Source of the DNA: Pyrobaculum calidifontis JCM 11548
GTDB lineage: Archaea > Thermoproteota > Thermoprotei > Thermoproteales > Thermoproteaceae
NCBI RefSeq assembly: GCF_000015805.1
Contig: NC_009073.1
Span: forward strand, 1,710,001 to 1,742,000
Reading direction: 5' to 3'
Length of the DNA stretch: 32,000 nt
Every line of letters starts with the position of its first letter. The stretch's first letter is position 1. A program made the position numbers and the translations under genes. The notes under the pieces were generated by a model, which made no database searches, was not told the origin of the DNA, and worked only from the letters and a program-made list of their open reading frames with translations. This document shows, piece after piece, positions 8,525-32,000 of the stretch.

Positions 8525-8842
8525 CTAGAAACATCCGGCGTCGCGGCACAGCTGCGAGCCGCGGCCGTGGAACTCCACCTCGACGCCGAGCCTTCCCCTG
8601 TAGTACTCTCTGACGTATCTGCCGGGCATCCTCATTCTCTCAAAACACAGCACAGCCCTCTTCTCACCGCACGTGAGAAGTCTGAGGCAAGCCTCCAGTT
8701 GCGCCACCACGTCCTCGTCTATTCCAAGGCTTGACTTGCACTCCACCGCCGCGCAGTCGCACACCGCGTCGCAGGCGGGTCCGCCCACAGAGCCGCGCCT
8801 ATTGCCAATTGTGTGGTTTTTATCTACCGGCTCGCAGCGCAT
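8525..8842 (-). CDS. small Cys-rich hypothetical protein (possible metal-binding)
   Basis: 105-aa ORF overlapping the 3' end of the upstream ATPase gene by 23 nt. Eleven Cys residues (CDAVCDCAAVEC...C..LLTC....LC). No family recognised, so coding status is uncertain. Confidence 0.35.
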   Translation of the reverse strand: MRCEPVDKNHTIGNRRGSVGGPACDAVCDCAAVECKSSLGIDEDVVAQLEACLRLLTCGEKRAVLCFERMRMPGRYVREYYRGRLGVEVEFHGRGSQLCRDAGCF

Positions 8843-9839
8843 TCTTGACTGCCCGGAGCGCCCTCTCCAAGTTCTCCAAAACCCTCAGCTGAGCCTCGTC
8901 CATATCCACCTCTCCCCCACGCAGGTCCAGCTCCTCGGCGTACGCGTCCCCCACCCTCCTCAAGTGGAACCGGTAGACCTTGACAGAGGGCCGCTCGCCC
9001 ACATCCACGCCGAGCTCCCCAGGATTCGGGTGAGCCGCCAAGGCCGCAACCCACGCAGTGAGAAGGTCGCTGTGGGTAGTGACCAAGAACCCCTTGCCCC
9101 GGGACGCCTCGGCGTATAAAAACTTGGCAAACTCAAACACGGCGTCGTCGTGGAGATGGGCCTCCGGCTCCTCAAGCACGAGATTCCGACAGCCGCCACG
9201 CCTAGCCAAATCCGCCAGAGAAACCACCATCGACGAGGGATTCCTCACCTCCACACCCCCCTCAAACACAGCCTCCTGAGAAACCACAATGTCAAACGCC
9301 GACGCCAGCCACCTAGCCGCAGCCGGGTATAGGCTATTACACCACTCCAGAGTAGACCAGGGGTAGAAAAGCGGGTCAAAATCGAAGAACCCCTCCCTCC
9401 CAACCCTCAGACTCTCCTCCACCTGCTTAGCCGCAGCCTCCACCAAGTCGCCCCCCACCTTAAAATTCCCCAACACATCCTTTTCGACAAGGAGGACTCT
9501 GCCCCCGTAGTTCAGCTTAACCACCACAGACTTCGCACCAGCCCTAACAGGAATCTCCAAAGCAAAGTCCTCGAGCTGTTGTAGAAACAGCTCAGACAAA
9601 GGCCGCTCTTTGACGGAACGCCCCCGCCTCCTCTCCGCAAGCGCCTTCGCGTACTCGACGGACGCCCTGTACAACGCCGTTGTGACAGCCGCCAGAGACC
9701 TAGCCACAATGCTCTTACCAGCCCTATTCACACCCACAAAGAGAGTAAGGCGGGCCACCTCAACCGACACCCGCTCCAAAGGCCCCAAATTCCAACCCTC
9801 AAACAGCACAGCCCCCACACACCCGGAGAATAAAAACAA
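8820..9839 (-). CDS. ABC/SMC-like (AAA_15/AAA_21, OLD-type) ATPase
   Basis: Walker A FVGVNRAGKS, Walker B plus D-loop NLVLEEPEAHLH, and H-loop VTTHSDLL. It lies 13 nt downstream of paralogue A on the same strand. The true start may be an internal GTG (9818 or 9809). Confidence 0.8.
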   Translation of the reverse strand: MFLFSGCVGAVLFEGWNLGPLERVSVEVARLTLFVGVNRAGKSIVARSLAAVTTALYRASVEYAKALAERRRGRSVKERPLSELFLQQLEDFALEIPVRAGAKSVVVKLNYGGRVLLVEKDVLGNFKVGGDLVEAAAKQVEESLRVGREGFFDFDPLFYPWSTLEWCNSLYPAAARWLASAFDIVVSQEAVFEGGVEVRNPSSMVVSLADLARRGGCRNLVLEEPEAHLHDDAVFEFAKFLYAEASRGKGFLVTTHSDLLTAWVAALAAHPNPGELGVDVGERPSVKVYRFHLRRVGDAYAEELDLRGGEVDMDEAQLRVLENLERALRAVKNALRAGR

Positions 9840-9852
9840 AACGCCCCCGGCG

Positions 9853-10878
9853 CTACCCCACGTCTACAAAAAGCGAGTAAAAATTCGCGAGGCCCGGCGT
9901 AAAGAGGCCAAGAGGCTCCCCATCAGCCGCCCTAAGCACATGCGGACAGGCGTCAGACAAAGGCCAGTCCAAGACAACGGAATTGGGAACATCCACCTCC
10001 ACCAACTGCGGAATCACAAAAGGCCTAGAACAGCCCCACCCCCGCACCTCCACCACAAGCCCCAGCCTCCTAGCCAAACCAGCCACATACCCCAGCAGAG
10101 CCTCCGCCACCCTCGCCCCCTCCTCTGCGCAAGCCACCAGCCTGGGGGCACCGCATGGGGACGCCGCTTCGTCCACGTCGCCTTGGAAAGGCTCTACCAC
10201 TCTCACATACCCCACCTCGCCGAACTCCGCCAGCGGGTTTTCCACTGTGGGCACGAACTTTGCGAGGTAAAGACCGTCGTCTCCCACGATGACCCAGCGC
10301 CGGGGCGCGCCTTCGGCCCCGTAGTCGAGCACCCCCAACACCCTGTGCCAAGCCAGCCACTGGCCCACCCGGAGGTAGCCGTTGCGCCGCCTAACCACGG
10401 GGAGCTCTTGGCCGAGGAGGGCTGTGCCTCTGCGCGGAAGAACGTGCTTCAGCCCCTCCCTACACCTCCGAAGAGAAATCAGCTCGTCATAGCTGTACTC
10501 CTCCACAGAAACAACCTCAAAACCCTCAGACACCGCCAACTTGTGCAAGATAGGGACAAAGTAGCCCCCCTCCGCCTCTATGTACATATCGCCAGACAAA
10601 AACCACCAACGCGTCGGCGCCCCAGAAGCCAGCAGAGGCGGCATACACCACGGCCTAAACTCAGCCACACCCCCACCCCACTCCCGCCCCTTCCAAAAAG
10701 ACTCCCTAAACCACCTAAGACGCCCAGCGCCACACCGCCTCATATTCTCCAACACGTCCACCATCCACTCAGCCCCCCAAAACACGCTCGTACAATAAGC
10801 CGCACCCACATAGCCGCCGCGCGCCACGCCGTAGACAAACCTATCATAAATCCTACAGCAACGCGCAATAGACGTCAT
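9853..10878 (-). CDS. uncharacterised family-1 protein, type A ('WHRVLGVLD-GDDGLY' core)
   Basis: ATG 10878 overlaps the stop of the upstream gene (ATGA at 10875..10878); the ORF track starts at TTG 10890. Shares a roughly 100-aa core and its C-terminal tail (RPFVIPQLVEVDVP..LDWPLSDACPHVL) with 24348..25304. Confidence 0.75.
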   Translation of the reverse strand: MTSIARCCRIYDRFVYGVARGGYVGAAYCTSVFWGAEWMVDVLENMRRCGAGRLRWFRESFWKGREWGGGVAEFRPWCMPPLLASGAPTRWWFLSGDMYIEAEGGYFVPILHKLAVSEGFEVVSVEEYSYDELISLRRCREGLKHVLPRRGTALLGQELPVVRRRNGYLRVGQWLAWHRVLGVLDYGAEGAPRRWVIVGDDGLYLAKFVPTVENPLAEFGEVGYVRVVEPFQGDVDEAASPCGAPRLVACAEEGARVAEALLGYVAGLARRLGLVVEVRGWGCSRPFVIPQLVEVDVPNSVVLDWPLSDACPHVLRAADGEPLGLFTPGLANFYSLFVDVG

Positions 10879-11939
10879 AAATGCCACCAATGAGCCCCCG
10901 GCCTATAGACACTACACGTATCCGCCAGCGGCCAGTCCAGCGCCTCTCTGCCTAGGGCCACCTCCTCTGGGCTTCCTAACAACACGTGCGGCACGCCCCT
11001 CTCCGCCTCGCATCTATGCCCCAAGCTTCTCAACAAGTCGGTGGTCTCTTCCGTACAGGCCACCAGCCTGGGGGCGCCACACGGAGAGGCGACGTCGTCC
11101 ACGTCCCCCTCGTAAGGCGCAACGACCTTCACGTACCCCACTTCGCCTATCTCCTCTAGAGGCTCCTTAGCGGTGGGCACAAACTCTGCAACATACAAGC
11201 CGTCATCACCCACGACTACCCACTTTTTGGCCGCCTCCCCGGGCTGGTAGTCCAACACCCCCAACACTCTATGCCAAGCCAGCCACTCGCCCACGCGCAA
11301 ATACCCAAGGCGCCTCCTCACCACTGGGAGCTCGGCGCCGAGGAGTGAGCCGCGGCCTGGAAGAGTGAGGGGTGGGCCGATGGGAGACACCACGAGGTTG
11401 TTTGCCTCGTAGGCAGTCCTGGGAGGGGGGCGGTAGAAGACGCACTTACACAAGCTGTAGTCCACCACATCCCCATAGAACCCATGCTGGCGCACAACTC
11501 TAAGCCCGCCCGGAGCCAGTACGTAGGCCACGTCGTCGGCCGGGGGGTACTTGAGGAAGTCAAAAAACTGAGCCACAGGCGCGTATACCCACCACCTAGA
11601 CCCCTCAATAGGCGGCACACAGAGGGGGCGAAAGCCCCCCTCAAAGACCCCCTCTACCACAAAGCCAAAAAGCCTCCACCAACGCCCGCCGAAGATGACG
11701 AAAGGCCTACCGCGGACGTACCCCTCGTAAGGCCACGGAGAAAAGACCTGCCCCACCAGCTCCAAAACCCTCACCCTCTTCTCGCCCCCAGGCACCACGT
11801 AGAAGACAAACCACTCCCCCACCCTCCCCACAAGGTCAGCCCAGCCCAAGTCCCACTCATCCGCATACTGAAGCAAGATGAGACGAGAAGAGCGGTAGAT
11901 AAACAGCTTAAGCTTGTAAAAAGGCGCCAGCGAAATCAT
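10875..11939 (-). CDS. uncharacterised family-1 protein, type B
   Basis: 354 aa. ATGA overlap with the upstream gene at 11936..11939. Collinear with 23014..24078, also 354 aa (CVPP..GSRWW, SPIGPP, core motif, LGHRCEAE, ALGRE..DWPL.DTC). Confidence 0.75.
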   Translation of the reverse strand: MISLAPFYKLKLFIYRSSRLILLQYADEWDLGWADLVGRVGEWFVFYVVPGGEKRVRVLELVGQVFSPWPYEGYVRGRPFVIFGGRWWRLFGFVVEGVFEGGFRPLCVPPIEGSRWWVYAPVAQFFDFLKYPPADDVAYVLAPGGLRVVRQHGFYGDVVDYSLCKCVFYRPPPRTAYEANNLVVSPIGPPLTLPGRGSLLGAELPVVRRRLGYLRVGEWLAWHRVLGVLDYQPGEAAKKWVVVGDDGLYVAEFVPTAKEPLEEIGEVGYVKVVAPYEGDVDDVASPCGAPRLVACTEETTDLLRSLGHRCEAERGVPHVLLGSPEEVALGREALDWPLADTCSVYRPGAHWWHL

Positions 11940-12973
11940 CTAAAACACCTCTCAACAGCCGACTTTAAATCCCTCTCGCCCTTAGGAACGTCGTCGAGCA
12001 AGACAAACCGCGCCACGAGCTGGCGGCCCAAGACCTGATACGTCACAAAAAGCGGCGCCACCCCCACCGACCTATCCAACGCCCTATGCCAGCGGAAAAT
12101 CTGCGACTCCACCCGCGGATAAGCCACGTACTCCAAGGCGCCGTAGCGCTCCGCCAAAGGAGCATCCACCGTCGCCCCCGACCCAGCATCCACCGCAAGG
12201 CCCACCAAGGCAACCCCCCGCCGAGTAAACCGCCGCCCATCAAAAAGCCCCTCCTCAACAAGGCGGTCCAGCTTACCCCTAAAGCCCCTGTACAAATCTT
12301 CAAACGTCCCGCCTTCCACCTTAGACACCTCAAGCCACAGAACCCGCCGGCCATCCTGCATAAGGCCAAGGGCATCTGGGCCATCCCCCCCCCCCCCCAC
12401 CTCAGACGGGAACTTGACGTTGACCACCTGCGGCAGAGGCCCGCCGTGGTACCTCAAGTTAATCACCTCCACCTCCCTAGAAAGCCTCGGCGCCATGGAG
12501 TACTGCGCCAAGTAGCCCCGGTTATACAACTCCTGCAGAAGAGCCACGTACCCCCCAACCCTAAACACCACCACCCCACGCCCCACATAGCCCACCCCCA
12601 CGGGAGGACGCCCACCCGCCTCCACAGCCGCCGCCAAGAGGCCCCACACACCCTCCCGCCCCAGCCTAACACCCTCAGGCTCCCTAGCCGCCAAAACCCC
12701 AAGCCCCACAAGCACATCCCACAGCCCCACACCCCCCACAAAGAGAGACTCCCTACCCCTAAGAGGCTTGAAGGGGATAACCCACGACGAGCCGCCCCCC
12801 TCCACCACCAACGCGTCCCCCACCACTTGTACCCTCGCCTCCGCGTGGGCCACGTGCTCTTGCGCCGCGCCGGCGGCACCTCTTTCAAACACCGCGAGGT
12901 CCGGCCAGTACAGGCGCAGGCGGCCCCCAGACGGCTCCCCCACCACCCGCCCCACCCCCAGCGACTTGTACAC
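11936..12973 (-). CDS. hypothetical protein homologous to the C-terminal third of the giant proteins; PD-(D/E)xK-like core
   Basis: 345 aa with a GTG start. GPDALGLMQDGRRVLWLEVSKV aligns with APDGLALANWNGWRVVWAEVARK (ORF 21003..22991) and LDLLGVGEGGRLVLGEVKAW (ORF 25556..28693). The tail W.RALDR..VAPLF..Y...AVERCFR* aligns with W.DAMDR.KVAPLL.VY...ALYNCFNK*. Confidence 0.7.
   Translation of the reverse strand: MYKSLGVGRVVGEPSGGRLRLYWPDLAVFERGAAGAAQEHVAHAEARVQVVGDALVVEGGGSSWVIPFKPLRGRESLFVGGVGLWDVLVGLGVLAAREPEGVRLGREGVWGLLAAAVEAGGRPPVGVGYVGRGVVVFRVGGYVALLQELYNRGYLAQYSMAPRLSREVEVINLRYHGGPLPQVVNVKFPSEVGGGGDGPDALGLMQDGRRVLWLEVSKVEGGTFEDLYRGFRGKLDRLVEEGLFDGRRFTRRGVALVGLAVDAGSGATVDAPLAERYGALEYVAYPRVESQIFRWHRALDRSVGVAPLFVTYQVLGRQLVARFVLLDDVPKGERDLKSAVERCFR
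12385..12398. repeat. C14/G14 homopolymer tract inside a CDS (in frame, encodes GGGG)
   Basis: Counted directly as 14 consecutive C on the plus strand. On the coding (minus) strand it reads gt[g ggg ggg ggg ggg g]at, giving VGGGGD. Confidence 0.9.
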
Positions 12974-12988
12974 GCGGAGGACCCCCTC

Positions 12989-13956
12989 TCAAACCCCCCG
13001 CAGAACCTCCTCCTCACCACCCCTAAGCTCCAGCTGACGCCTCTCCCCATCCCAGGCCCCCCACGCCGCCCTCCACACGCCCCCCACCTCCACCACGAAG
13101 TAGTAGGTGGCGCCCCGCCGAAACACGAGAAGCCCCTCCCCACTCCACAGCCTCTCAAACCCCTCAGGCGCCGCCCCAGACGCCGCCGCCAGGCCAAAAA
13201 AGCCGTCTACCCCAAGGACAACGTCCCCACGCCCGCGCCCCACGTCCACGAGGCGCGCCGCCACCCCCAAAAGCCTAAGCCCAGCACAGAAGAGGGGCCC
13301 CGCCCCCCGCACCCTCGCCGAGAGGTCCTCCCCAAACTCGACAGCCCTCCCGCCAACCCTAAACGCCAGCCCGCCCGCGTACGTCGCCCTCCACCGCCCC
13401 AGCCGCCCAAGCAGAGCGTCGCGGAACCCACCATAAAGCTCAAGGCCCCGGCGCCCCAGGGTAGAGGAGACCCCCACCTCCCTCAGCAGGCTATGTATCT
13501 CCGCCAAGTCCCCCCACGACACCTCTCCGCCGGCGTATATACCACCCCTAAACCTCTTCCCCACACCCCTCAGCTCAACGAGGACGGGCCTCCCCCACCT
13601 GTAAAACCAAACCCGCGCCCTAAGCCACCCACGCCCCACGTCCAAGACCTCCGCCAAGAGGCGTCCCCCACAGAGAGGCGCAGAGAAGACGCCAAACCCA
13701 GGCGGTACACAAGTCCAGCACACACCTCGCCCCCCAGCACCACAGACCCACCCACGGCCCTGCCCCCAAGCCCCTCAGCCACAGCCCCCACAGCCTCCCC
13801 ACAGCCCCCCTCCACACAGCGCAGGCGGCACCCCACAACCTCAAACACGCCCCCAAACGCGCCAAACCGCCTAGGCCCAAACACAGGCCCCAACACCCCG
13901 TCCACCTTTGCCAACGCCTCAGCAGAGACGCACACAAGCCCCCCGAGGCCTGGCAT
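12989..13956 (-). pseudogene. hypothetical gene, apparently split between two frames (13570..13956 and 12989..13723)
   Basis: Two overlapping minus-strand ORFs each look protein-like on only one side of about nt 13700-13730. A G6 run (ctggggggcgag) and a G5 run lie in the overlap. Very GC-rich, so confidence is low. Confidence 0.35.
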
Positions 13957-16229: not shown

Positions 16230-16263
<34 letters not shown>

Positions 16264-19768: not shown

Positions 19769-19803
<35 letters not shown>

Positions 19804-19992: not shown

Positions 19993-20124
19993 CTGTTTTC
20001 CTCAAGTCCTCGCCTTTTGAAACCCGCTGGGGGTAGACGGTTGCTGTGTTTTCTAGCTTTCAACGGCGCGTTGATCCCGGCGTGGTATTTTGTACAACCT
20101 CTCGGCGGTTTTTTCGTATTTTTT
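19993..20124 (+). terminator. T-run cluster downstream of 23S (putative archaeal terminators)
   Basis: T4 at 19996..19999, 20015..20018 and 20049..20052. T6 at 20109..20114 and 20119..20124. Confidence 0.35.
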
Positions 20125-20161
20125 CAACGTATTGTTTAAATATTAGAGTTTGTCGGTGGGT

Positions 20162-21154
20162 ATGCGGGTTTGGTGGCTGGTCTTGTTGGTGGCTGTTCTG
20201 GTGTTGGGGGGCAACGTGGATACTAATGGGCTTGTTCTGTTTGTTAACGATACTGGGGACTACCGGGGTTCTTACTACTTGAAGGTGTTTGATCTTCAGC
20301 GGTGGTGGGATGCGGGGTATTCTCGGGTGTTGGTTAGGGCTTCTGTGGGGGCTGAGTGGGCCTTTGAGAGGGTTGAGGGGTCTGTGCTGGATTTTGCCTT
20401 GTTTTGGGAGGATTGTACTAGTTGCGACTCCGCAGAGCCTCCTCCTGTGAAGAACGTTAATACGATTTACGAGGACGAGATTTTGAGGGTGACTTATGTG
20501 GGTGGTAGGTGGGTTGTCCAGGTGCTGTGGCACCAGGGCGGGTTTACTCACTGGGTGTATGTCAACGGCTCTCTGTTTTTTACGCACTTCGGGGGGTCTG
20601 TGGGGGGCGGCCCCTCCGGCGAGTTTTTTGGGGAGGTTCTGCGGGTTGATCTTAAGTCCTCCGGCGATCCGAGGGCTGATTCCTACGCGGTGTTTTATTC
20701 TCCTGGGTATGCGTGTCGGTCTTTGTTTGGCTTGTTGGGGTGGGCGGCTGTGCATGGGCTTGACGCTGGTGAGGCTAGTGGGTTGTTGAGGAGTTTTGGG
20801 TACTCGCTTTCTGTGAAGAGGGTTGACAGGAGGGATGGAGTGGTTTTGTTTTTCTTGTCTAACGGCTCTGTGGTGGAGGTCCCTGTGTTTTTCGAGGTGC
20901 AGTCCAACGGGACGGGGCTTTTCGTGGTGGGGAACCCGTCGTGTGTCAACGCGACGTATGTCGCCGTGGTGAGGCTTTCGGGGGGGGGGGGGGGGGAGGG
21001 GGGTGCTGAATTTCAGCTTGTCGGTTGGGGCGTGGGACGCAGTGCTGGCGGCGCCGGCTGTTTGGCGGGGGGAGGAGGCGAAGTACGACGTCTCTCTCTT
21101 CCTCTACGCCCCGCCGGGGGCGTACTCGCTGGGGAACTTCTCGGTGTCTTTTGA
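20162..21154 (+). CDS. giant secreted/surface protein D, 5' fragment (frame broken at the G17 tract)
   Basis: ATG 20162 lies 23 nt after TATA tttaaatatt (20135..20144). Signal peptide MRVWWLVLLVAVLVLGG and N-x-S/T sequons (NDT, NGS, NGT, NAT). Residues after the G-tract (GAEFQLVGWGVGRSAGGAG...) look non-coding. Confidence 0.7.
   Translation: MRVWWLVLLVAVLVLGGNVDTNGLVLFVNDTGDYRGSYYLKVFDLQRWWDAGYSRVLVRASVGAEWAFERVEGSVLDFALFWEDCTSCDSAEPPPVKNVNTIYEDEILRVTYVGGRWVVQVLWHQGGFTHWVYVNGSLFFTHFGGSVGGGPSGEFFGEVLRVDLKSSGDPRADSYAVFYSPGYACRSLFGLLGWAAVHGLDAGEASGLLRSFGYSLSVKRVDRRDGVVLFFLSNGSVVEVPVFFEVQSNGTGLFVVGNPSCVNATYVAVVRLSGGGGGEGGAEFQLVGWGVGRSAGGAGCLAGGGGEVRRLSLPLRPAGGVLAGELLGVF
20980..20996 (+). repeat. 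G17 homopolymer tract (followed by a, then G6) at a frame junction
   Basis: Counted directly: g at 20980 through 20996, a at 20997, g at 20998..21003. Confidence 0.95.
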
Positions 21155-22991
21155 CAAGCCGCGGCTTGTGGCGGGGAACCGGTCTATCGTCATGAGGCCT
21201 CTCCACGCGGTGTTTCTGCCTCTTGAGACTAGGCGGCTGGTGGACGCCTATGGGCCGTGCAACGAGGCGTTTTGGAAGGCCTTCGACGAGGTGGCGGACC
21301 CGTACGACTACTCCCTCCTGGGCGACGTCGCGCTTACGGTTATACCAGTGGGGAGGATCGCCGGCTTTTTCGGGAAGCTCCTGGGCGTGGGCAAGGCGGC
21401 TGAGAGGGCTGAGGGCTTGATCTCGGCGTTGAAGACGGTTTACTACGCGCTGGGCTCTTCCAAGTGGGCTAGGGCTGTGGGGACCGGCGTCGGCTTCGTG
21501 CTCCGGGATGCGTTCATAGCGGAGGACTTGAGGCAGATCTTAGAGCCGGAGGCGGCCGAGGAGGTCTTCTCGGCGTTTGGGGTGGACTTGGCTGAGGTGG
21601 AGCGGTTCCACGCAGGGGTGCTGACGCGGTCTTCGTGTAGCCACGCGGGCAGGTACTACGCGGCTGTGTACGTGTCTTGGGCGCAGCGGGTGTCGGCGGT
21701 GGTGGACCTCGCCTCGAACCTATACGCCAAGGTGTCGAGAGACGCGCTGGAGAAATTCGGCAACGCCTTCGTCAAGGTGGCCGAGGGGGCTAAGCTGTTT
21801 TCGCACGTCACCCATGCCGGCTACGTCGCGGCGCGGGCGTGGGGGCCGCATGAAATTGACGAGGATACGTGGGCAAAGGCCTTTACCAAGCTGGCCAGGG
21901 CCCTCACGGGGAGAGACGACGTGGCGGCCGTGGTGGCCACGACCCCCAACGGAATCGTGACGTCTGATAGGCAGTTGCACATAATTCTCGGCCTTGACAA
22001 GAAGAAAGGTGTTAACTACTTCAACCCGGGGCGGGCTGGCCGGAGCGTAAGCGTTGGGGGCCTTGACGTGTTTTATGAGGAGGGCGGTGAAGAGGCCGGT
22101 GGGTTCTACTTGGCGTGGTATGAGAAGCGGAAGCTTGTTAGGTGGACGTCTCCGGAGTTCTTCGAGGTGCTTCAGCAGAATGGCCTTGCCTGGGTTCTGC
22201 GGAGCAAGTTTGAAATGCGGAGCGTGAGGGGCGTCCGCTACGTGTGCTTCAACTACGAGGTGGAGTACGACGACGCGTTGTTCGGCGCCTTTGCGAGCCT
22301 GGCGACTATCTCCCAGTGGCACCAGAAGCTCGCCGCTCTGCCTCTGTTTTGGCTTCTCGGCCCCAGAATAGACGTGGTGCAAGCCGCCTACGAGGTGGAC
22401 ATGGCCCCGAAGGACGTGGCCGTCAAGGAGCTGGAGGGGCCGGTGGGGATGCTGGGGCTGGTGGGGTATTGGGAGAAGACCAGCTACTACCTACGCGACA
22501 TGCCGGGGGTGTATGTCCATTTAAGAGGCTGGAGGACCGGGGGCGCCGCCCCCGACGGCTTGGCTTTGGCTAATTGGAATGGGTGGAGGGTGGTGTGGGC
22601 CGAGGTGGCGAGGAAAATCGACGAGACTGTTAACAAGTTTAAGAGCAACGCGGCTAAGTTGCAGGAGGCCGGCATCTTGGCTGGGGGCTCCTTTACTCCA
22701 TACGGCTTTGCCCTCGCCGCGTTTAGGGTGGACGCGATGAGCGGTGTCACTGCGGGGGGCAACGCCTTTGGCAGTAGCCCAGTGTCTGACAAAGTCTTGG
22801 CGCATCCCCAGGCTAAGAGCAGGCTGGTGGAGTGGGCTGACGCCATGGACAGGCACAAGGTGGCGCCCCTATTGGCGGTCTACGAGGGCGATGGGCCGAG
22901 CTTCAAGGTGCGCGGAGTCTTGTTTGAACAACTCGTCGACTTTGACGACCCGGAGGTGAGGGCAGCCCTCTACAACTGCTTCAATAAATAA
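21003..22991 (+). CDS. giant protein D, 3' fragment (PD-(D/E)xK-like core near the C-terminus)
   Basis: This frame is open from 20973 and continues the homology to paralogue G across the tract (VRLSGGGGG/RGVLNFSLSV vs LRLSNKTGSSGVAHGSRLSLTNV). It has a hydrophobic segment LLGDVALTVIPVGRIAGFFGKLLGV. APDGLALANWNGWRVVWAEVARK and the C-terminal tail are homologous to ORF 11936..12973. Confidence 0.75.
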   Translation: MLNFSLSVGAWDAVLAAPAVWRGEEAKYDVSLFLYAPPGAYSLGNFSVSFDKPRLVAGNRSIVMRPLHAVFLPLETRRLVDAYGPCNEAFWKAFDEVADPYDYSLLGDVALTVIPVGRIAGFFGKLLGVGKAAERAEGLISALKTVYYALGSSKWARAVGTGVGFVLRDAFIAEDLRQILEPEAAEEVFSAFGVDLAEVERFHAGVLTRSSCSHAGRYYAAVYVSWAQRVSAVVDLASNLYAKVSRDALEKFGNAFVKVAEGAKLFSHVTHAGYVAARAWGPHEIDEDTWAKAFTKLARALTGRDDVAAVVATTPNGIVTSDRQLHIILGLDKKKGVNYFNPGRAGRSVSVGGLDVFYEEGGEEAGGFYLAWYEKRKLVRWTSPEFFEVLQQNGLAWVLRSKFEMRSVRGVRYVCFNYEVEYDDALFGAFASLATISQWHQKLAALPLFWLLGPRIDVVQAAYEVDMAPKDVAVKELEGPVGMLGLVGYWEKTSYYLRDMPGVYVHLRGWRTGGAAPDGLALANWNGWRVVWAEVARKIDETVNKFKSNAAKLQEAGILAGGSFTPYGFALAAFRVDAMSGVTAGGNAFGSSPVSDKVLAHPQAKSRLVEWADAMDRHKVAPLLAVYEGDGPSFKVRGVLFEQLVDFDDPEVRAALYNCFNK

Positions 22992-23013
22992 ATCCTCCCC
23001 CGTTTTTCGTCTC

Positions 23014-24078
23014 ATGGTCGAGCTCTTGTTTAGGGAGTGGCTTGCGGTTCGGAACATCAACTCGATCAACGACTATAAGGGGCCGTGCTCCGCGGGGGAG
23101 CCGCCGTACGACGGGACTATCGCCCTCCTCGGGAGGGCTGAGGGGGGCTTCGTCCTCGCCGTGCACGCCTCCTCAAACCGCTACTGGTTTCGGCGCATAT
23201 CGCACCTCGTAGACGTGGTCAAGGAAGGCGGAAAAGACGAGATATCGTACGTCGTGTTTGAGGGCCTGGTCTGGGCCAAGCCGATGGTGTATTTGAAAAG
23301 GGGGAAGGCAATCGTTAGGCTCATTCTAGTTAGGCGCCACACAGGCGGCTTTAAGCCTAAGTGCGTCCCGCCGCTTGGCGGCTCTAGGTGGTGGGGATAC
23401 GGCAGCTTCTACGAAGACATGCAGAAAATGACGGGCCTCAGCTACCCAGTCGGCGAGGTCCAACTCTACGTCCTCACAGAGCGCGGCCTCGAAGTACAGT
23501 GCGAGTACTGCATGTACGAGCTCCAAGAAATTATCCTGAGCCCGTGTAAGTACGCCTTCGGCGGCAGATGGCTTCCCTACTCGCCGATTGGCCCGCCGGT
23601 GAGGGCCCCGGGCGCGGGATCGCTGACCGGCGCCGAGCTGCCGGTAATAAGGCATAGGGATAGATACCTCCGGGTTGGCAACTGGATAGCTTGGCATAGA
23701 GTCCTCGGCGTTTTGGACGACGGCCGCTGGGTTTTAATTGGCGACGACGGCCTCTACGAGGCGGTTTTTCAGCCAACTGTGAATAACCCGCTGGGGGAGT
23801 TCGGCGAGGTTGGCTTCGTGAAGGTGCTGGGCCCGTACAACGGCGACGTGGACGAGGTGGCCTCCCCCTGCGGCGCTCCTAAGCTGGTGGCTTGCAACGA
23901 GGATACTAGACACCTCCTAGAGCCCCTCGGCCACAGGTGCGAGGCAGAGGGGGCCCACGTGACTCTGGTTACGAACACCCCGGTAGCGCTTGGCAGGGAA
24001 GTCGTCGACTGGCCGCTTACAGACACCTGCGGCCCTCTGCTGAGGCTAGGCGACGTGGACCTCTTCACCTGGGACTAG
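23014..24078 (+). CDS. uncharacterised family-1 protein, type B (second copy)
   Basis: 354 aa. The ATG lies 26 nt after TATA aataaataaat (22983..22993). Collinear with 10875..11939. Confidence 0.8.
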   Translation: MVELLFREWLAVRNINSINDYKGPCSAGEPPYDGTIALLGRAEGGFVLAVHASSNRYWFRRISHLVDVVKEGGKDEISYVVFEGLVWAKPMVYLKRGKAIVRLILVRRHTGGFKPKCVPPLGGSRWWGYGSFYEDMQKMTGLSYPVGEVQLYVLTERGLEVQCEYCMYELQEIILSPCKYAFGGRWLPYSPIGPPVRAPGAGSLTGAELPVIRHRDRYLRVGNWIAWHRVLGVLDDGRWVLIGDDGLYEAVFQPTVNNPLGEFGEVGFVKVLGPYNGDVDEVASPCGAPKLVACNEDTRHLLEPLGHRCEAEGAHVTLVTNTPVALGREVVDWPLTDTCGPLLRLGDVDLFTWD

Positions 24079-24347
24079 GGGCTGGCGGCAATCACTGCCG
24101 GCCTCGGCCGGCTGGTTAGACGCCGTCCTGAGTCAGGGAAACTCGGAGGGGCGTCCTTTACTGACACCCCGGTCTGATCTTCCGTCGGTCAAGACGCGTA
24201 AAATCTTGATGCCTGTCAGTCTGGTCAGGACAGGGGACGTGGAGCTGGCTTTTAGCCGGGCAAACGCGGCGGCTGTAGCCGCCGGAGCGGCCCATCGCCG
24301 GTCTGCCGCGGGCCGACAAGTTTATATTTTCGGCTGGCGGAGTTGGT

Positions 24348-25304
24348 ATGGCCGGCTGGAGCTACGTGGTGGGGAGACTCCCGCGGGGGGATCTGGTGTA
24401 CCGTTGCTACCTCAGTTTCTATAAGGACTCCTTCTACTGGGAAGGCTCTCTGGAGTGGTGGCGGCAGAATTTTAGGCTTAGGGTGATCCCCCGCGGCGAG
24501 AAGGACGACACGTATTGGGACGGCGACTTGCGGGGGTTTAGGGCGGCTTATGTGCCTCCGATGCCGGCGGGGGGCGGGTTTTCGCGGTGGTGGTGGCTTT
24601 GGGGGGTCTTCGCCTACGAGGGGCCTTTGGGGGTTTCCTACGTGGGGCTTGGGGGGGCGGCGGTGTCTGAGGGCTTCACGGCGGAGCGGCTTGGGGTTGA
24701 GCTAGAGGTTGAGAAGCTAGCTGGGCTGAGGGTGCACGGGGCTGGGGGCGGGGAGCTGGCCGGGGCGGAGTTGCCGGTGGTGAAGGAGAGGGGTAGGTAT
24801 CTCAGAGTGGGCAGGTGGCTCGCGTGGCACCGGGTGGCCGGCGTGCTTGAGGGCGGCAGGTGGGTGATCTTGGGCGACGACGGCCTCTACGAGGCGGAGT
24901 TCGTGGCCACTGCCAAGAACCCGCTGGAGGACTTCGGGGAGGTCGGCTTCGTGAAGGTGCTGGCGCCTTACGGAGGCTCTGAGCAAGACGTCGCCTCTCC
25001 CTGCGGCGCGCCTAGGCTGGTGGCGTGTAACGAGGAGGGGCTGAGGGTGGCCGGCGCCGTGTTGGACTACGTGAGGAGGGCGCTCAGGGAGGCGGGGGTG
25101 GAGGGCGTAGACCTCTTCGTCCCGTCCTCTTGGCGCTGCGCGAGACCTTTCGTCATCCCCGAGCTCGTGGAGGTGGACGTCCCGGACGAGGCGATCCTCC
25201 ACTGGCCCCTCGCTGACCCTTGCCCCCACGTCCTTAAGGTAGCCGCCGGCGACCCGCTAGGCCTCACGACCCCCGCCACGTGCTTCATGTGCTGGGAGTG
25301 GTGA
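24348..25304 (+). CDS. uncharacterised family-1 protein, type A (second copy)
   Basis: 318 aa. The ATG lies 23 nt after TATA tttatatttt (24321..24330). Collinear with 9853..10878 (RPFVIPELVEVDVPDEAILHWPLADPCPHVLKVAAGDPLGLTTP). Confidence 0.8.
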   Translation: MAGWSYVVGRLPRGDLVYRCYLSFYKDSFYWEGSLEWWRQNFRLRVIPRGEKDDTYWDGDLRGFRAAYVPPMPAGGGFSRWWWLWGVFAYEGPLGVSYVGLGGAAVSEGFTAERLGVELEVEKLAGLRVHGAGGGELAGAELPVVKERGRYLRVGRWLAWHRVAGVLEGGRWVILGDDGLYEAEFVATAKNPLEDFGEVGFVKVLAPYGGSEQDVASPCGAPRLVACNEEGLRVAGAVLDYVRRALREAGVEGVDLFVPSSWRCARPFVIPELVEVDVPDEAILHWPLADPCPHVLKVAAGDPLGLTTPATCFMCWEW

Positions 25305-25555
25305 TGGAGAGGCCTTACAGCCGCTGGTTCGGCGGGTCGCCTCTGCTCATACACGGGCCGCGCGGCGGGGCTTAAGTCCGGGGAGGGGCGGTGCGGTGGG
25401 GAGGGCGGGGCGGAGGCGCGTGCTTGCGGTGTACGGGGAGGGGGCGGAGATCTTCGTCGAGCGGTCGCTGAGGGGTTGCTCGCAATGAGGCGGGGACCGC
25501 CTGGCGGCTGGGGGCTTCTTGTCACCAAGACCGGCGGCGCGGGGGCTATTCTGCC

Positions 25556-28693: not shown

Positions 28694-28735
28694 CCGGCCC
28701 GCGAGGGGCTTTTAAAGACGGCCCATTTTTTGTAC

Positions 28736-30781
28736 ATGTTCATGAGAAATACCGGGTGCCGCTTCCGAGCAAAGAGGGGGCGGGGGGAGCTGGTGTTTGA
28801 GGGCGTGGGTGGCGCCCACTACTACATGGGGTGGTGCCCCTCCAGCGAGGCTGTGGTGGCTATTCGCCGGGCTTCTCTGCCTCTCGCCATTGATAGAGAG
28901 GTGTGCCCCTCGGGGTACTGCCCCGTGACGTGTACAAACTGGGAGAGGGAGGCGCCCATCCTCTTGCTCAGCGGCGGTGGTGTGAGGGCCTTTGGCATCG
29001 GCGTAGGCCGCATGGTGGGGGAGGTGCACGACCTCCCAGTGCCCCCAGTCCCCTACGAGGACTTGGAGACGGGCGAATTGGGGTGGACTAGGCTTGTCCC
29101 CGACTTGGTGTTGGAGGACGTGCTCCCCTGGCAGGAGGCTAGGAAGATCTGCAGGTACCCAGAGCACTGCCAGCCGGCCCTCGTTGGCGAGGGGGGCTTG
29201 GTCAAGTCCATCGGCGACATACCCACCAGCTTTGCCCACGTCGCAGACTGCTCCTACGAGGGCTTCTCCCTCCTAGCCGCCCGATACGAGCCAGGCAACT
29301 TCGTCAAGGTTGAGGAGGATCTGTACTGGATAAGACACGAATACGCAGAGTGGGACGACCCGCGTTTCCCCGGCCTCGGCCGCCTCTTGGGGGAGGAGTT
29401 TCGGGTTAAAGAAGTCGAGGGTGACTACCTCCGCCTAGTGGGCCGCGGCGGCGATGAGCACATTGCGTGGGACTTTGTGTTGGGGGTGCTTGACTCTGGG
29501 GAGTGGGTGGTCATGGGCGAGGATGGTCTCTACTTGGCGGAGCATAGGGGTGGGCGCGTCGTCGTAACGGCGCCTTATCGGGGGCCGCTCATAGACGTGA
29601 GAGGGCCTCCCTCCCTCTACCCCCTCTTCTCGTACCGCATCCCCAGCGTTAGGAGGGCGGCTGAGCGGGTGGAGAGGCTCTTGGGCAAGTCCCTCAGAGA
29701 GCTGTTGGACGAGGAGGTTCCCAACCCCGAGCTCTACCTAAGGTGGCCCCTTGTGAGGAGGCGGTGGCAGTTCAAGGTGGTGCTTCACTACCCCTACCGC
29801 AACTACCTCTACCGCTTCCGCTACGTCCCGTCGGAGGATGGGCCGTTGTATGTCGTGTACAAGTTTGAGCCCAAGCTCCTTATCCCTCTGGGCGTTAGAA
29901 AGTGCCGTGTGGGTGTATCGGCGCAGGAGAGGCCGGGCCACGTGGCCGTCTCTATGGGCGAAGATCCGTGGGATAAGTACTGCCTCACCCTCGTGGACGG
30001 GGAGGGCAAATTCTACGTGGCTGTGTCTGCCGACCCCTACGACTGGCAGAGGTGGCTTCGGCCGCTCTTCACAGCCCGCGCCCCTCCGGCGGACTTCCCC
30101 TCCACGCCGCTCCCCACGGGGGACGGGTGGAGTAGGCTTGTCCACCCGCCTGAGCCGTTCCTCGACTTCCCCGACCCCATCCCCTACAACCCACACTGCG
30201 CCAGCTACTACGGCCACCTCCCCGGCAACTGCCAAGCCGTTGGGTCAAAATTCCCCGTAGCTCTTGGGTCAAGATACCACGAGACAGCTGGGTCGAGGTT
30301 CCCTGGGCGAGGCCGCCTCGTGGGCGAGGAGTTCCGCATAAAGGAAGTGGAGGGCGATTACCTGCGCCTTGTGGGGAGGGGTGGGGATGAGTACGTGGCG
30401 TGGGACTTCGTCTACGGGGTGTTAGATACTGGCGATTGGGTCCTCATGGGTGGGGACGGTCTCTACTTGGCGGAGCTTAGGGGCGATAGGATAGTTGTCG
30501 TGGCGCCGTATGGGGGGCCTGTGGAGAGGGTTAGGGGTCCTCCCTACGGCCTTCTCTACCCGGTTGTGGTGGGTGGGGTGGTGAGGTGGCCGGGGTGGGC
30601 TCCGCGGGTTGAGGTGGACCCGTGGTTGCTTTTGAGGTGGCCTCTTGTCTTGCCGGGGTGGGAGGTGGGTGGGCTTGAGTTCTACGGGGCCTACGGCTTG
30701 GGGCTTGTGGGGAGGGGCGTGAGAGTGAGGAAGGTGGAGGCTGAGAAGATATGGCTGAGGGAGATAGACGCTAAGTATTAA
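28736..30781 (+). CDS. uncharacterised family-2 protein with internal tandem duplication (two 'GDYLRLVG...GDGLYLAE' modules)
   Basis: ATG 28736 lies 23 nt after TATA cttttaaag (28709..28717). The two repeats (about 29374..29610 and 30297..30540) are about 75% identical at DNA level by eye. Each is followed by an LRWPLV motif. Confidence 0.75.
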   Translation: MFMRNTGCRFRAKRGRGELVFEGVGGAHYYMGWCPSSEAVVAIRRASLPLAIDREVCPSGYCPVTCTNWEREAPILLLSGGGVRAFGIGVGRMVGEVHDLPVPPVPYEDLETGELGWTRLVPDLVLEDVLPWQEARKICRYPEHCQPALVGEGGLVKSIGDIPTSFAHVADCSYEGFSLLAARYEPGNFVKVEEDLYWIRHEYAEWDDPRFPGLGRLLGEEFRVKEVEGDYLRLVGRGGDEHIAWDFVLGVLDSGEWVVMGEDGLYLAEHRGGRVVVTAPYRGPLIDVRGPPSLYPLFSYRIPSVRRAAERVERLLGKSLRELLDEEVPNPELYLRWPLVRRRWQFKVVLHYPYRNYLYRFRYVPSEDGPLYVVYKFEPKLLIPLGVRKCRVGVSAQERPGHVAVSMGEDPWDKYCLTLVDGEGKFYVAVSADPYDWQRWLRPLFTARAPPADFPSTPLPTGDGWSRLVHPPEPFLDFPDPIPYNPHCASYYGHLPGNCQAVGSKFPVALGSRYHETAGSRFPGRGRLVGEEFRIKEVEGDYLRLVGRGGDEYVAWDFVYGVLDTGDWVLMGGDGLYLAELRGDRIVVVAPYGGPVERVRGPPYGLLYPVVVGGVVRWPGWAPRVEVDPWLLLRWPLVLPGWEVGGLEFYGAYGLGLVGRGVRVRKVEAEKIWLREIDAKY

Positions 30782-31634
30782 CGGTTGCTAGCTTTGCCTT
30801 GTACTTCTTGTGTAACAGCTGGGCTAGGCGGACTGCGTATTGGCCGGGGGTCCCCCTGAACGCGGCCAGCGGCCACCTTGTGGCTATGTGAAACACCTCG
30901 TCGTCGCGGACACAGACCTCGCTGTCGCCAACCTGGAGGGCGCCCAGGGGGCAGTTTGTCTTTACAGAGGGGGTGCTTGGGAGGACGTCGCCGAGGAATG
31001 GGGGCCCCTCCACAGCCCTAACCTCGCCCCAGTAAGGCCCCTCCACCACGGCGTACCCCACCCTCCCGCTGGGCCCCACGTCTTCTATAAATGCCGCAGT
31101 GTAGAGGCCGTCTTTGCCCATGAGGACCCACCGGTCGCCGACGGTGCCTAAGACAAAGCGGAACGCCGGCACGACACCCTCTGGCGATTCCATCTGTAGA
31201 TACTCGCCCTCAATGGCGTATACGGCGAAGCGCTCGTCCAAGTGGGCACCGCGGCCGGGGACGCGGACACGGGAGAAGATAGACCAAGGCCCCTCCACCC
31301 CGTAGCGCTTTAAGACTGGCTTGAGGTACTCTACGAGGTATCTAGCCGACGTCGCTTGGTACATGTCGTAGGGGGACAGCCTGTCTCCGGCCTTGAGTGG
31401 GAGTCTGAAAGGCCCGCCGGAGGCAGAGGGGTAGGCCAGGTAGGCGTTGGTGAGGTCTAAAACTCTGAGCAGGGAAGAGAGGTAGTCTTCAAAGACGAGG
31501 AGTGGGACAGCCCTACACCCGGGGAAGTAGCGACAGCGCCCCTCCACTCCCACCCCTAGGACAACTACCCTCGACCAGCCGTCGGATCGCTCGTTGTACT
31601 GCCTCGGGTATAGGCCGTAGACTACAGAGGCCAT
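30771..31634 (-). CDS. uncharacterised family-2 protein (single module)
   Basis: IEGEYLQMESPEGVVPAFRFVLGTVGDRWVLMGKDGLYTAAFIEDVGPSGRVGYAVVEGPYWGEVRAVEGPP ... TRWPL. The likely start is ATG 31634 (MASVVYGLYP...); the ORF track starts at GTG 31685. Convergent with 28736..30781, overlapping by 11 nt. Confidence 0.7.
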   Translation of the reverse strand: MASVVYGLYPRQYNERSDGWSRVVVLGVGVEGRCRYFPGCRAVPLLVFEDYLSSLLRVLDLTNAYLAYPSASGGPFRLPLKAGDRLSPYDMYQATSARYLVEYLKPVLKRYGVEGPWSIFSRVRVPGRGAHLDERFAVYAIEGEYLQMESPEGVVPAFRFVLGTVGDRWVLMGKDGLYTAAFIEDVGPSGRVGYAVVEGPYWGEVRAVEGPPFLGDVLPSTPSVKTNCPLGALQVGDSEVCVRDDEVFHIATRWPLAAFRGTPGQYAVRLAQLLHKKYKAKLATVNT

Positions 31635-31999
31635 TTCAAAACCTCTCGGCCCCTCTCCACAAGCTCCCCCGCCTCGTCCTCCCACAGAGCCAAGTTATCC
31701 CCCATGTAGAAGCCCCCGGGGAACCTGCACCCGCTGGCCACCTCGGCCACCCTCTTTGTGCATAGTACGAAGGGCGGCAGGTCTGAGGGGCCCTCCACCT
31801 CTCTCACGTCGCCTCGGTAGGGCTCTTCCACCACGGCGTAGCCGACTCTGCCTCCAGGCCCCTCGGCCCTTTCGAAGCGGGCGAGGTAGAGGCCGTCTTT
31901 GCCCATGAGGACCCACCTGCCGCCGACAGTGCCAAGCACCACGTTGACGGCGAAGTCGAGCCCCCAGGGAGACTCCATCTGAAGATACTCACCCTCCAC
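31622..31999 (-). CDS. uncharacterised family-2 protein, 5' end outside window
   Basis: EGEYLQMESPWGLDFAVNVVLGTVGGRWVLMGKDGLYLARFERAEGPGGRVGYAVVEEPYRGDVREVEGPS ... LKWPL*. The frame is open to the window edge. Tandem with 30771..31634. Confidence 0.7.
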   Translation of the reverse strand: MEGEYLQMESPWGLDFAVNVVLGTVGGRWVLMGKDGLYLARFERAEGPGGRVGYAVVEEPYRGDVREVEGPSDLPPFVLCTKRVAEVASGCRFPGGFYMGDNLALWEDEAGELVERGREVLKWPL

Positions 32000-32000
32000 T

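What the first reader, a model, noticed from the sequence alone, without database searches (positions are those of the whole stretch)
23014..25304. Family 1: four paralogues share an unusually conserved about 100-aa core with no obvious named domain
The cores align without gaps except one loop:
- A: GQELPVVRRRNGYLRVGQWLAWHRVLGVLDYGAEGAPRRWVIVGDDGLYLAKFVPTVENPLAEFGEVGYVRVVEPFQGDVDEAASPCGAPRLVACAEEG
- B: GAELPVVRRRLGYLRVGEWLAWHRVLGVLDYQPGEAAKKWVVVGDDGLYVAEFVPTAKEPLEEIGEVGYVKVVAPYEGDVDDVASPCGAPRLVACTEE
- E: GAELPVIRHRDRYLRVGNWIAWHRVLGVLDDGRWVLIGDDGLYEAVFQPTVNNPLGEFGEVGFVKVLGPYNGDVDEVASPCGAPKLVACNED
- F: GAELPVVKERGRYLRVGRWLAWHRVAGVLEGGRWVILGDDGLYEAEFVATAKNPLEDFGEVGFVKVLAPYGGSEQDVASPCGAPRLVACNEEG

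All four also share an N-terminal F(R/K)xxC/YVPP...SRWW block and a distal (D/H)WPLxDxC motif.

Flanking regions fall into two types. B/E carry LGHRCEAE. A/F carry RPFVIPxLVEVDVP...CPHVL. The contrast between an invariant core and divergent flanks within one genome suggests strong constraint on the core, for example a binding or catalytic surface. The pattern looks like short beta-strands, SH3/barrel-like.
Basis: seen in the sequence. Interest (0 to 1): 0.7.

Follow-up and report, generated by a model that had tools for sequence, protein, structure and literature searches.

The report
Orphan paralogue family in Pyrobaculum
Four intact genes beside the rRNA operon of a Pyrobaculum genome share a strongly conserved, unnamed protein core; they belong to a small family found only in Pyrobaculum and close relatives, and they travel as modules with the tail ends of large, strain-variable proteins, an arrangement that resembles toxin-immunity or self-recognition loci.

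Summary
All four cores are in the sequence exactly as quoted: E and F at the given coordinates, A and B at 9853-11939 on the minus strand. They are 67-74% identical over 92-98 residues; the flanks are 20-58% identical.

The conservation in this window is not recent gene conversion. Synonymous sites are near saturation (dS 0.8-1.9), omega is 0.13-0.25, and the longest shared nucleotide tract is 25 nt. In sister genomes, however, neighbouring long and short genes share 66-335 nt identical core tracts, so selection and recurrent core-limited conversion both act on the family.

No Pfam, NCBIfam, PHROG, PADLOC or PDB sequence match was found. A confident AlphaFold model (pLDDT 85) has no Foldseek match.

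The family has about 44 clusters among 1.84 billion representatives, all from Pyrobaculum, Thermoproteus or a Thermofilaceae genome bin. The window holds three more distant genes, with four further domain copies.

Members form a long+short pair behind a large protein. That protein's C-terminal region plus the pair recurs at ~100% identity in different flanks. A second large protein switches allele at a sharp junction, together with its downstream family genes.

Best reading: cognate partners, immunity-like or adaptor, of polymorphic large proteins. Function is untested.

The parts
23014..24078 (+). Gene E, long subtype (354 aa); conserved core at 23629-23904
   Evidence: AlphaFold model pLDDT 85.3, pTM 0.84; the exact protein is found on at least 21 public contigs
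24348..25304 (+). Gene F, short subtype (318 aa); conserved core at 24762-25040; TATA-like TTTATATT about 20-25 nt upstream of the ATG
10875..11939 (-). Gene B, long subtype (354 aa); conserved core at 11046-11339; 4-nt overlap with the upstream gene U345
9853..10890 (-). Gene A, short subtype (ORF 345 aa; likely start at the ATG at 10878, giving an ATGA overlap with the stop of B); conserved core at 10117-10413
   Evidence: the start was read from the ORF translation
28730..30781 (+). G683: a distant family member with two tandem copies of the domain (about 29342-29779 and 30275-30709); lacks the His and the Cys set; directly downstream of W
   Evidence: repeat D3
30771..31685 (-). H304: a distant single-domain member. 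The 287-aa form starting at 31634 falls in the 90% cluster of P. calidifontis ABO09291.1, and this exact sequence occurs on public metagenome contigs
31622..32000 (-). Y: a distant member cut by the window end (377 aa in locus L010)
20150..22991 (+). V: large upstream protein, read here as two ORFs (20150-21154 and 21003-22991) because of a frameshift in a G17AG6 run at 20981-21004; intact at 900 aa in L017 and L013. It has an N-terminal signal/TM-like segment and NxS/T sequons, and a C-terminal E...D...E-V motif
21521..25369 (+). Recombining module: the last ~490 aa of V plus E plus F. It is 99.97% identical in L015, where both flanks differ; 22023-25822 is ~100% identical in L005
25556..28693 (+). 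W: second large protein (1045 aa). Its N-terminal part carries six NxS/T sequons. The allele junction lies at nt 26871 (about residue 433-438), after the motif CAEARGAGRRWAAER; the variable C-terminal half keeps LD(L/V)L...GRLV.EVK
11936..13723 (-). U244 and U345: a V/W-like C-terminal region without the extracellular part (an orphan-like module) directly upstream of B and A. The C-terminus of U345 is 31% identical to that of V
8820..9839 (-). AAA_15/AAA_21 (GajA/AriA/NsnB-like) ATPase directly downstream of A. It is a neighbour only and is not conserved in other loci

Best explanation
A, B, E and F are real genes for cytoplasmic, Cys/His-rich proteins with two parts: an all-beta N-domain and a C-terminal domain whose first ~100 residues are the conserved core. 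They belong to an unnamed superfamily found only in Thermoproteaceae.

Shown:
- They occur as a long+short pair, translationally coupled or closely spaced, immediately behind a large V/U-type protein.
- The C-terminal region of that large protein plus the pair is inherited as one module in a mosaic, strain-variable island next to the rRNA operon.
- A second large protein, W, changes allele at a sharp junction, and different family members follow it in the two strains.
- The core is kept by purifying selection and is periodically homogenised between the neighbouring genes by gene conversion.

Inferred:
- The family proteins are the cognate binding partners (immunity-like inhibitors or adaptors) of the C-terminal domains of the large polymorphic proteins.
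- The conserved core is the common scaffold or contact module.
- The divergent N-domain and tail confer type specificity.
- The four invariant Cys plus one His of the A/B/E/F clade form a structural metal site or disulfides rather than an active site.
For: Coding and constraint:
- Omega is 0.13-0.25 in the core at dS 0.8-1.9.
- Among orthologues the core is 70-91% identical and the N-domain 27-64%.

Orphan status:
- 38 clusters among 5.8 billion proteins and 46 hits, 2 of them spurious, among 1.84 billion representatives.
- All named members come from Pyrobaculum, Thermoproteus or Thermofilaceae and are annotated as hypothetical.

Pairing and synteny:
- The order V, long, short, then often W and G/H-type members, is seen in L001-L008 and L017.
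- A Thermoproteus W homologue is followed directly by a two-domain member.

Module inheritance:
- Window 21521-25369 is 99.97% identical in L015 with unrelated flanks.
- Window 22023-25822 is 100% identical in L005, while the N-terminal half of V is only 50-80% identical at the nucleotide level.
- W is 100% identical to the L017 allele for residues ~100-432, then 20-50% identical. The downstream partner is a two-domain fusion in the window but two separate 344-aa proteins in L017.

Clade matching:
- V/U-type C-termini are followed by the H/C-bearing clade, and W-type by the G/H clades.

Location in the cell:
- The family proteins have no TM segment and no sequons. The N-terminal parts of V and W have both.

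Conversion.

Conservation pattern:
- It is spread over about half of all core positions.
- Superfamily-wide conserved residues are mostly Gly, Pro, Trp and aromatic, which fits a scaffold or interaction module.
Against: - No physical interaction, toxicity or secretion has been shown.
- The nuclease-like reading of the V/U/W C-termini rests on a motif seen by eye. Profile searches against PDB and Pfam were negative.
- Typical immunity proteins are small and diversify with their toxin. These proteins are 300-350 aa with an unusually invariant core.
- Only two tail types exist among 42 sequences.
- In Pyrobaculum sp. WP30, no family member follows W within 3.6 kb.
- One long/short pair in L017 has no V gene directly upstream.
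- The left-hand cassette has an ATPase where W would be.
Confidence: 0.35

Rival explanations
1. The proteins are non-conflict partners. The long and short proteins form a hetero-oligomer through their near-identical cores, and this acts as the cytoplasmic signalling or assembly subunit of the membrane-anchored V/W surface proteins (a receptor or surface-structure complex). The strain variability would then reflect virus- or environment-driven diversification of the exposed parts.
For: - The paralogous pair is translationally coupled.
- Concerted evolution of the cores fits a shared or pseudo-symmetric interface.
- In L005 it is the N-terminal, sequon-bearing half of V that varies, while the C-terminal part plus E and F stay identical.
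- Conservation covers the whole core surface.
Against: - In W it is the C-terminal half, not the exposed half, that is replaced.
- An orphan-like C-terminal module, U244/U345, exists without an extracellular part.
- The surrounding genes are of defence type: McrBC-like and a GajA/AriA-like ATPase.
- There is no evidence of oligomerisation.
Confidence: 0.2
2. The core is an enzyme domain, for example a Cys/His hydrolase that processes V/W or another substrate. It would use His228, Asp244/245 or Glu265, and Cys286 of the SPCGAP motif.
For: - E208, H228, R229 and E265 are invariant, and D244, D245, S284, C286 and C294 nearly so, in 42 sequences.
- The SPCGAP motif and the His-Asp-Cys order recall the GxCGG motif of chymotrypsin-like Cys proteases. 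This is my recollection and was not tested.
- The top, insignificant, full-length Foldseek hits are trypsin-like proteases.
Against: - His, Glu265 and all the Cys are absent in the G683/H304/Y clades, which keep the fold residues.
- The His-to-Cys spacing is 58 residues within a single ~7-strand unit, too short for a two-barrel protease.
- Foldseek TM is 0.10 and E above 0.1.
- Conservation is diffuse rather than confined to a few residues.
- Four Cys are invariant, which fits a metal site or two disulfides.
Confidence: 0.12
3. The conserved core is only a product of gene conversion between tandem paralogues and has no special functional constraint.
For: - 100% identical nucleotide tracts of 66-335 nt are confined to the core in WP30, L007, P. 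ferrireducens and L001.
- The long and short cores are as similar to each other as they are within a subtype.
- Chimeric third genes exist in L001-L003.
Against: - In this window the synonymous sites of the cores are near saturation (pS 0.51-0.70) and the longest shared tract is 25 nt.
- The protein cores nevertheless stay 67-74% identical.
- Cross-species comparisons show the same low dN at saturated dS.
Confidence: 0.05
4. The genes belong to an integrated virus or other mobile element.
For: - The island is strain-variable, contains many unnamed genes, and carries paralogous families.
Against: - No relatives were found in IMG/VR, in phage and archaeal virus records, in BFVD structures or in PHROGs.
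- The window has no integrase, no transposase and no tRNA gene.
- The position next to the rRNA operon is conserved in several species.
Confidence: 0.05

Closest known systems
Polymorphic toxin systems of bacteria and archaea (CDI CdiA-CT/CdiI, Rhs, LXG; established knowledge, Zhang/Aravind and Makarova et al. mBio 2019, cited from memory and from the reference list of PMC8416519)
   Same: - A large protein with a surface or secretion-type N-terminal part.
- A sharp junction after a conserved motif, beyond which the C-terminal region differs between close strains.
- Downstream cytoplasmic gene(s) co-inherited with that C-terminal region.
- An orphan-like C-terminal module nearby.
- A PD-(D/E)xK-like motif in the C-terminal region.
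   Different: - There is no recognisable trafficking, pre-toxin or toxin domain.
- The partner proteins are large (300-680 aa), come as a paralogous long+short pair, and carry a very conserved core instead of being hypervariable.
- Toxicity and export are not shown.
VARTIG module of Thermococcales (PMC8416519)
   Same: - It is specific to one archaeal lineage.
- It has a large upstream protein whose C-terminal part is shuffled by recombination, followed by variable downstream genes.
- Its function is unknown, and conflict or self/non-self roles have been proposed. That paper found no counterpart in other archaea.
   Different: - VARTIG is defined by Ig/CARDB domains. None is detected here.
- The downstream genes here belong to one paralogous family.
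paREP repeated protein families of Pyrobaculum (PMC3558965; PaREP1 = PF05942)
   Same: - Pyrobaculum-specific and multi-copy.
- Associated with variable genome regions and rearrangements.
   Different: - There is no sequence match: the Pfam scans, which include PF05942, were negative.
- The only PaREP1 gene seen lies about 7 kb away in P. ferrireducens.
Small beta-barrels of the Sm/SH3-like kind
   Same: - The core is predicted as a meander of short beta-strands.
- Sm proteins are the top Foldseek hits of the core model.
   Different: - The hits are insignificant (E 0.17-1.2, TM 0.13-0.22).
- There is no sequence-profile match.
- The domain continues for a further ~50-90 residues to the WPL motif.

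Membership tests
Any curated protein family (Pfam-A, NCBIfam, PHROGs, PADLOC) | Profile match at or near the family threshold | tested here: not met
   There were no hits at E<=1 for A, B, E, F and G683. H304 gave only a PHROG hit of unknown function at E 0.03. Scanning all 42 members of A2 and all 32 members of A4 gave only isolated hits at E>=0.07.
Chymotrypsin-like (PA clan) Cys/Ser protease | His-Asp-nucleophile triad on two six-stranded barrels, conserved across members | tested here: not met
   The sequence order H228-D244/245-C286 exists. However, it spans 58 residues within one ~7-strand unit, Foldseek TM to proteases is 0.10, and the residues are absent in the distant clades.
Polymorphic toxin system | C-terminal region of a large protein replaced between strains at a sharp junction after a conserved motif | tested here: met
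   W is 100% identical to the L017 allele for residues ~100-432, then 20-50% identical. The nucleotide match ends at 26871 in L013, L014, L017 and L018. The motif RGAGRRWAAER is conserved in W homologues.
Polymorphic toxin system | Downstream cognate gene(s) co-inherited with the C-terminal region | tested here: met
   The V C-terminus plus E and F form one ~100% identical block found in different flanks. The W C-terminus changes together with its G-type partners. Exception: WP30.
Polymorphic toxin system | Recognisable toxin domain and N-terminal trafficking domain | tested here: not met
   Only an E...D...E-V-(K) motif, seen by eye, is present. Profile searches against PDB and Pfam were negative. 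The N-terminal part has only a signal/TM-like segment and sequons.
Polymorphic toxin system | Toxicity of the C-terminal domain and neutralisation by the partner | not testable with these tools
   This needs expression and binding experiments.
VARTIG module | Ig/CARDB domains in the large protein and in downstream genes | tested here: not met
   V662 and W1045 gave no Ig-type Pfam hit at E<=1.
Structural Zn site or disulfide pair in the A/B/E/F clade | Conserved set of ligands, close together in space | tested here: inconclusive
   H228, C286, C294, C309 and C339 are 100% conserved in both subtypes and are lost together in the distant clades.

The most novel reading that the evidence does not exclude
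The island beside the rRNA operon encodes a previously undescribed, Thermoproteaceae-specific polymorphic effector-partner system, either toxin-immunity-like or for self/non-self recognition. It would be built entirely from unnamed folds. Large surface-anchored proteins would exchange C-terminal modules by recombination. Each module would bring its own cognate proteins of this family, whose core is a new protein fold kept uniform by selection and gene conversion.
Probability: 0.3. Interest if true: 0.75.

Novelty: new variant of a known kind. Interest (0 to 1): 0.55.

Why it matters
- Inter-microbial conflict and self-recognition systems are almost unknown in Crenarchaeota. The full-text search found no paper that combines polymorphic toxins with Thermoproteales, and the VARTIG study found no counterpart outside Thermococcales.
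- If the module reading is right, this locus gives a tractable example in the cultivable P. calidifontis, with natural allele series in hot-spring metagenomes.
- The domain has no detectable relative in sequence or in the structure libraries searched.
- It is also a clear natural case of segment-limited concerted evolution between adjacent, functionally differentiated paralogues.
- If the reading is wrong, the finding remains a well-delimited, lineage-restricted protein family of unknown function.

Tried and rejected
Searches that found nothing:
- Pfam, NCBIfam, PHROGs and PADLOC scans of the window proteins and of all aligned homologues.
- PDB sequence-profile searches with A2, A3, A4 and A5, and with V and W as single sequences.
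- Foldseek of the full-length model against PDB and BFVD, and of the core-only model against PDB: all E>0.03, TM<=0.25.
- An IMG/VR scan and tblastn against phage records.
- A tRNA scan and an Rfam search of the E-F spacer.
- Literature searches for paREP families, Thermoproteales polymorphic toxins and P. calidifontis transcriptomes.

- The mBio 2019 paper is not held.

A choice that cost information:
- The second AlphaFold job used the shallow 8-sequence core alignment and gave only pLDDT 66. The deeper alignment would have been better.

Rejected readings:
- Recent gene conversion as the cause in this window.
- Provirus or mobile element.
- PA-clan protease.
- paREP membership.
- Non-coding artefact: rejected because omega is well below 1 and orthologues are intact.

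A weak Pfam hit of one member to the Phage_base_V/Gp45 OB domain (E 0.07) is at chance level.
Full report
**1. Observation**

The four quoted cores are present letter for letter.
- E: 23629-23904 (+), in ORF 23014-24078.
- F: 24762-25040 (+), in ORF 24348-25304.
- B: 11046-11339 (-), in ORF 10875-11939.
- A: 10117-10413 (-), in ORF 9853-10890.

The finding's coordinates cover only E and F. A and B lie on the other side of the rRNA operon: 16S at 14191-15689 and 23S at 15738-19952.

The four-way alignment confirms every stated motif:
- the FRxxC/YVPP...SRWW block;
- the WPLxDxC motif;
- LGHRCEAE in B/E;
- RPFVIPxLVEVDVP...CPHVL in A/F;
- a single loop indel, a 6-residue insertion shared by A and B.

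Pairwise BLASTP E-values are 1e-47 to 1e-85. A probably starts at the ATG at 10878, which overlaps the stop codon of B as ATGA. B overlaps the stop of the upstream gene U345 by 4 nt.

**2. Selection or conversion?**

Nei-Gojobori estimates on a codon alignment:

| Region | Protein identity | dS | dN | omega |
|---|---|---|---|---|
| Core | 67-74% | 0.84-1.87 | 0.18-0.26 | 0.13-0.25 |
| Flanks | 20-58% | not tabulated | not tabulated | 0.25-0.68 |

- The cores are only 71-76% identical at the nucleotide level.
- The longest exact shared tract is 25 nt for E/F and 17 nt for B/A.
- The conservation among the four window copies is therefore due to purifying selection on old paralogues, not to recent conversion.

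The family as a whole does undergo core-limited conversion. In other genomes the cores of the adjacent long and short genes are almost identical, including at synonymous sites:

| Genome or locus | pS in the core | Longest identical tract |
|---|---|---|
| Pyrobaculum sp. WP30 | 0.12 | 161 nt |
| L007 | 0.16 | 194 nt |
| P. ferrireducens | 0.34 | 66 nt |
| L001, long gene vs a chimeric third gene | 0.07 | 335 nt |

- In the same gene pairs the flanks are 40-50% identical.
- Across 42 sequences, long and short cores are as similar to each other as within a subtype.
- The loop insertion occurs in both subtypes, which needs at least one old exchange.
- Among orthologues the core (70-91%) is still far better conserved than the N-domain (27-64%) and the tail (40-63%).
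- Both forces therefore act on the family. In this window, selection is what is seen.

**3. Extent of the family**

- A search of 5.8 billion clustered proteins with E found 38 clusters. All named ones are hypothetical proteins of Pyrobaculum, plus one Thermofilaceae genome bin, and none has a Pfam domain.
- BLASTP inside the window found more distant copies of the same domain: two in 28730-30781 (+), one in 30771-31685 (-) and one in 31622-end (-).
- A profile of the eight window copies, run against all 1.84 billion representatives, found 46 proteins. Two of these are spurious repeat proteins.
- Named members come from P. calidifontis, P. arsenaticum, P. ferrireducens, Thermoproteus uzoniensis and genome bins assembled from metagenomes (MAGs).
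- Residues conserved across the whole superfamily: G200, G202, G206, Y218, L219, G222, A226, V230-G232, W239, V240, D245-Y248, P274, V282, P285, W333, P334, and R125 of the N-terminal PPL...SR(W) block. These are mostly structural residues.
- His228 and four Cys (C286, C294, C309, C339) are 100% conserved in both subtypes of the A/B/E/F clade. They are missing together in the distant clades.

**4. Fold**

- AlphaFold2 with the 42-sequence alignment gave a confident model of E: pLDDT 85.3, pTM 0.84. It has an all-beta N-domain (1-185), a linker, and a C-terminal domain (205-345). The conserved core forms a meander of about seven short strands with pLDDT 93-97.
- Foldseek found nothing significant in PDB or BFVD. 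A core-only model (pLDDT 66) gave Sm proteins and an intein as its top hits, both insignificant.
- No sequence profile matched Pfam, NCBIfam, PHROGs, PADLOC or PDB.
- The fold is therefore unassigned. The SH3-like guess is neither confirmed nor excluded.

**5. Genomic context**

- The long and short genes are always adjacent and co-oriented, usually with a 4-nt overlap.
- They follow a large protein, V, of 800-1019 aa. They are often followed by a second large protein, W, and then by G/H-type family members.
- This order lies directly downstream of the rRNA operon in P. ferrireducens and in several MAGs.
- In a Thermoproteus MAG a W homologue is followed directly by a two-domain family member.
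- In the window, the left cassette (U244, U345, B, A, all on the minus strand) and the right cassette (V, E, F, W, G683) face away from the rRNA operon.
- The family proteins have no TM segment and no NxS/T sequons, and they have 7-12 Cys.
- V has an N-terminal signal/TM-like segment. The N-terminal parts of V and W carry five to six sequons each.
- V, U345 and W share a C-terminal E-V...(P/L)D...E-V-(K) pattern. To my eye this resembles PD-(D/E)xK nucleases, but profile searches did not confirm it.

**6. Mosaic inheritance**

- The window is very close to P. calidifontis. W1045 is 100% identical to a P. calidifontis protein, and H304 falls in the 90% cluster of P. calidifontis ABO09291.1.
- Against MAG contig L017, the window is 99% identical from 16339 to 26871, with E and F 100% identical. 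The match then stops abruptly inside W.
- At the protein level, W residues ~100-432 are 100% identical. Residues 433-656 are 40-50% identical and the rest 20-30%. The switch follows the motif CAEARGAGRRWAAER, which is conserved in all W homologues.
- The downstream partner also differs: a two-domain fusion (G683) in the window, against two 344-aa proteins in L017.
- Against L005, the N-terminal half of V is only 50-80% identical at the nucleotide level, while 22023-25822 is ~100% identical.
- In L015, the block 21521-25369 (the last ~490 aa of V, plus E and F) is 99.97% identical, with different sequence on both sides.
- U244 and U345 look like a C-terminal region without the extracellular part. 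U244 aligns weakly from the junction motif onward, and U345 matches the V C-terminus.
- This is the organisation of polymorphic toxin, CDI and Rhs loci and of the VARTIG module: C-terminal regions of large proteins are exchanged together with their downstream cognate genes.

**7. Interpretation**

- I consider it most likely (0.35) that the family proteins are cognate binding partners, immunity-like or adaptor, of the C-terminal domains of V/U/W.
- The conserved core would be the common scaffold or contact module. The variable N-domain and tail would give type specificity.
- The Cys4+His set would be a structural metal site or disulfides. Intracellular disulfides are well known in Pyrobaculum (established knowledge, not tested here).
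- Points against this reading:
  - the partners are large and their core is far too conserved for classical immunity proteins;
  - no toxin or trafficking domain is recognisable;
  - WP30 lacks a family member behind W.
- Rivals are a non-conflict receptor or assembly complex (0.2), an enzyme (0.12), pure conversion (0.05, refuted for this window) and a mobile element (0.05).

**8. Novelty and score**

- The proteins exist in databases only as hypothetical proteins.
- Neither the domain nor the locus organisation appears in the curated libraries or in the literature I could search.
- I rate the finding as a new variant of a known kind: a polymorphic, module-swapping locus with entirely new components.
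- Interest is 0.55.

Noticed in passing
window 20981-21004: A G17AG6 homopolymer lies exactly where the large V gene is broken into two overlapping ORFs (20150-21154 and 21003-22991). The same gene is intact at 900 aa in L017 and L013, and it is fragmented at other places in L014, L015 and P. ferrireducens (at a G7 run). This is either an assembly error at a homopolymer or phase variation.
   Followed up: partly
window 17593-18209 and 18445-18995; also position 19448: The 23S rRNA gene carries two insertions with LAGLIDADG_3 ORFs (17632-18180 and 18450-19175) that are absent from the otherwise 96-98% identical L005. L017 has an extra ~639 nt at window position 19448. This indicates intron presence/absence polymorphism between close strains.
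   Followed up: partly
window 24079-24347: A 270-nt GC-rich spacer separates E and F. In most other genomes the two genes overlap by 4 nt (L001-L004, L006, L008; 16 nt in L007). The spacer is also present in L005, L013-L015 and L017. It folds better than shuffled sequence (z = -3.0) and has no Rfam match. A TATA-like TTTATATT lies just upstream of F.
   Followed up: partly
window 4995-9839 (-): Defence-type neighbours lie to the left of the cassette: a McrB-like AAA_5 protein with a weak EVE domain (6269-7861), a weak McrC match (4995-6272), and an AAA_15/AAA_21 ATPase resembling GajA/AriA/NsnB (8820-9839) directly downstream of gene A.
   Followed up: partly
window 26871 (inside W, 25556-28693): A recurrent recombination breakpoint. 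The nucleotide matches to L013, L014, L017 and L018 all end at this same position, just after the codons for the conserved RGAGRRWAAER motif.
   Followed up: yes
L001 12554-13465 (also L002, L003, L006): A third, chimeric family gene (303 aa). Its N-part and core are like the long gene (335 nt identical) and its tail is like the short gene. It looks like a product of unequal recombination between the neighbours.
   Followed up: partly
window 12381-12401: A C14 run (G14 on the coding strand) inside U345 encodes the GGGG stretch just before its PD...EV motif. This is a second long homopolymer in a V-like gene.
   Followed up: no
window 1586-2326 (-) and 4493-5026 (+): Two ORFs without any Pfam match lie among housekeeping genes. 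The first contains a D...EVK pattern (DFLLVEGGEVYHVEVK) that resembles a PD-(D/E)xK nuclease motif.
   Followed up: no
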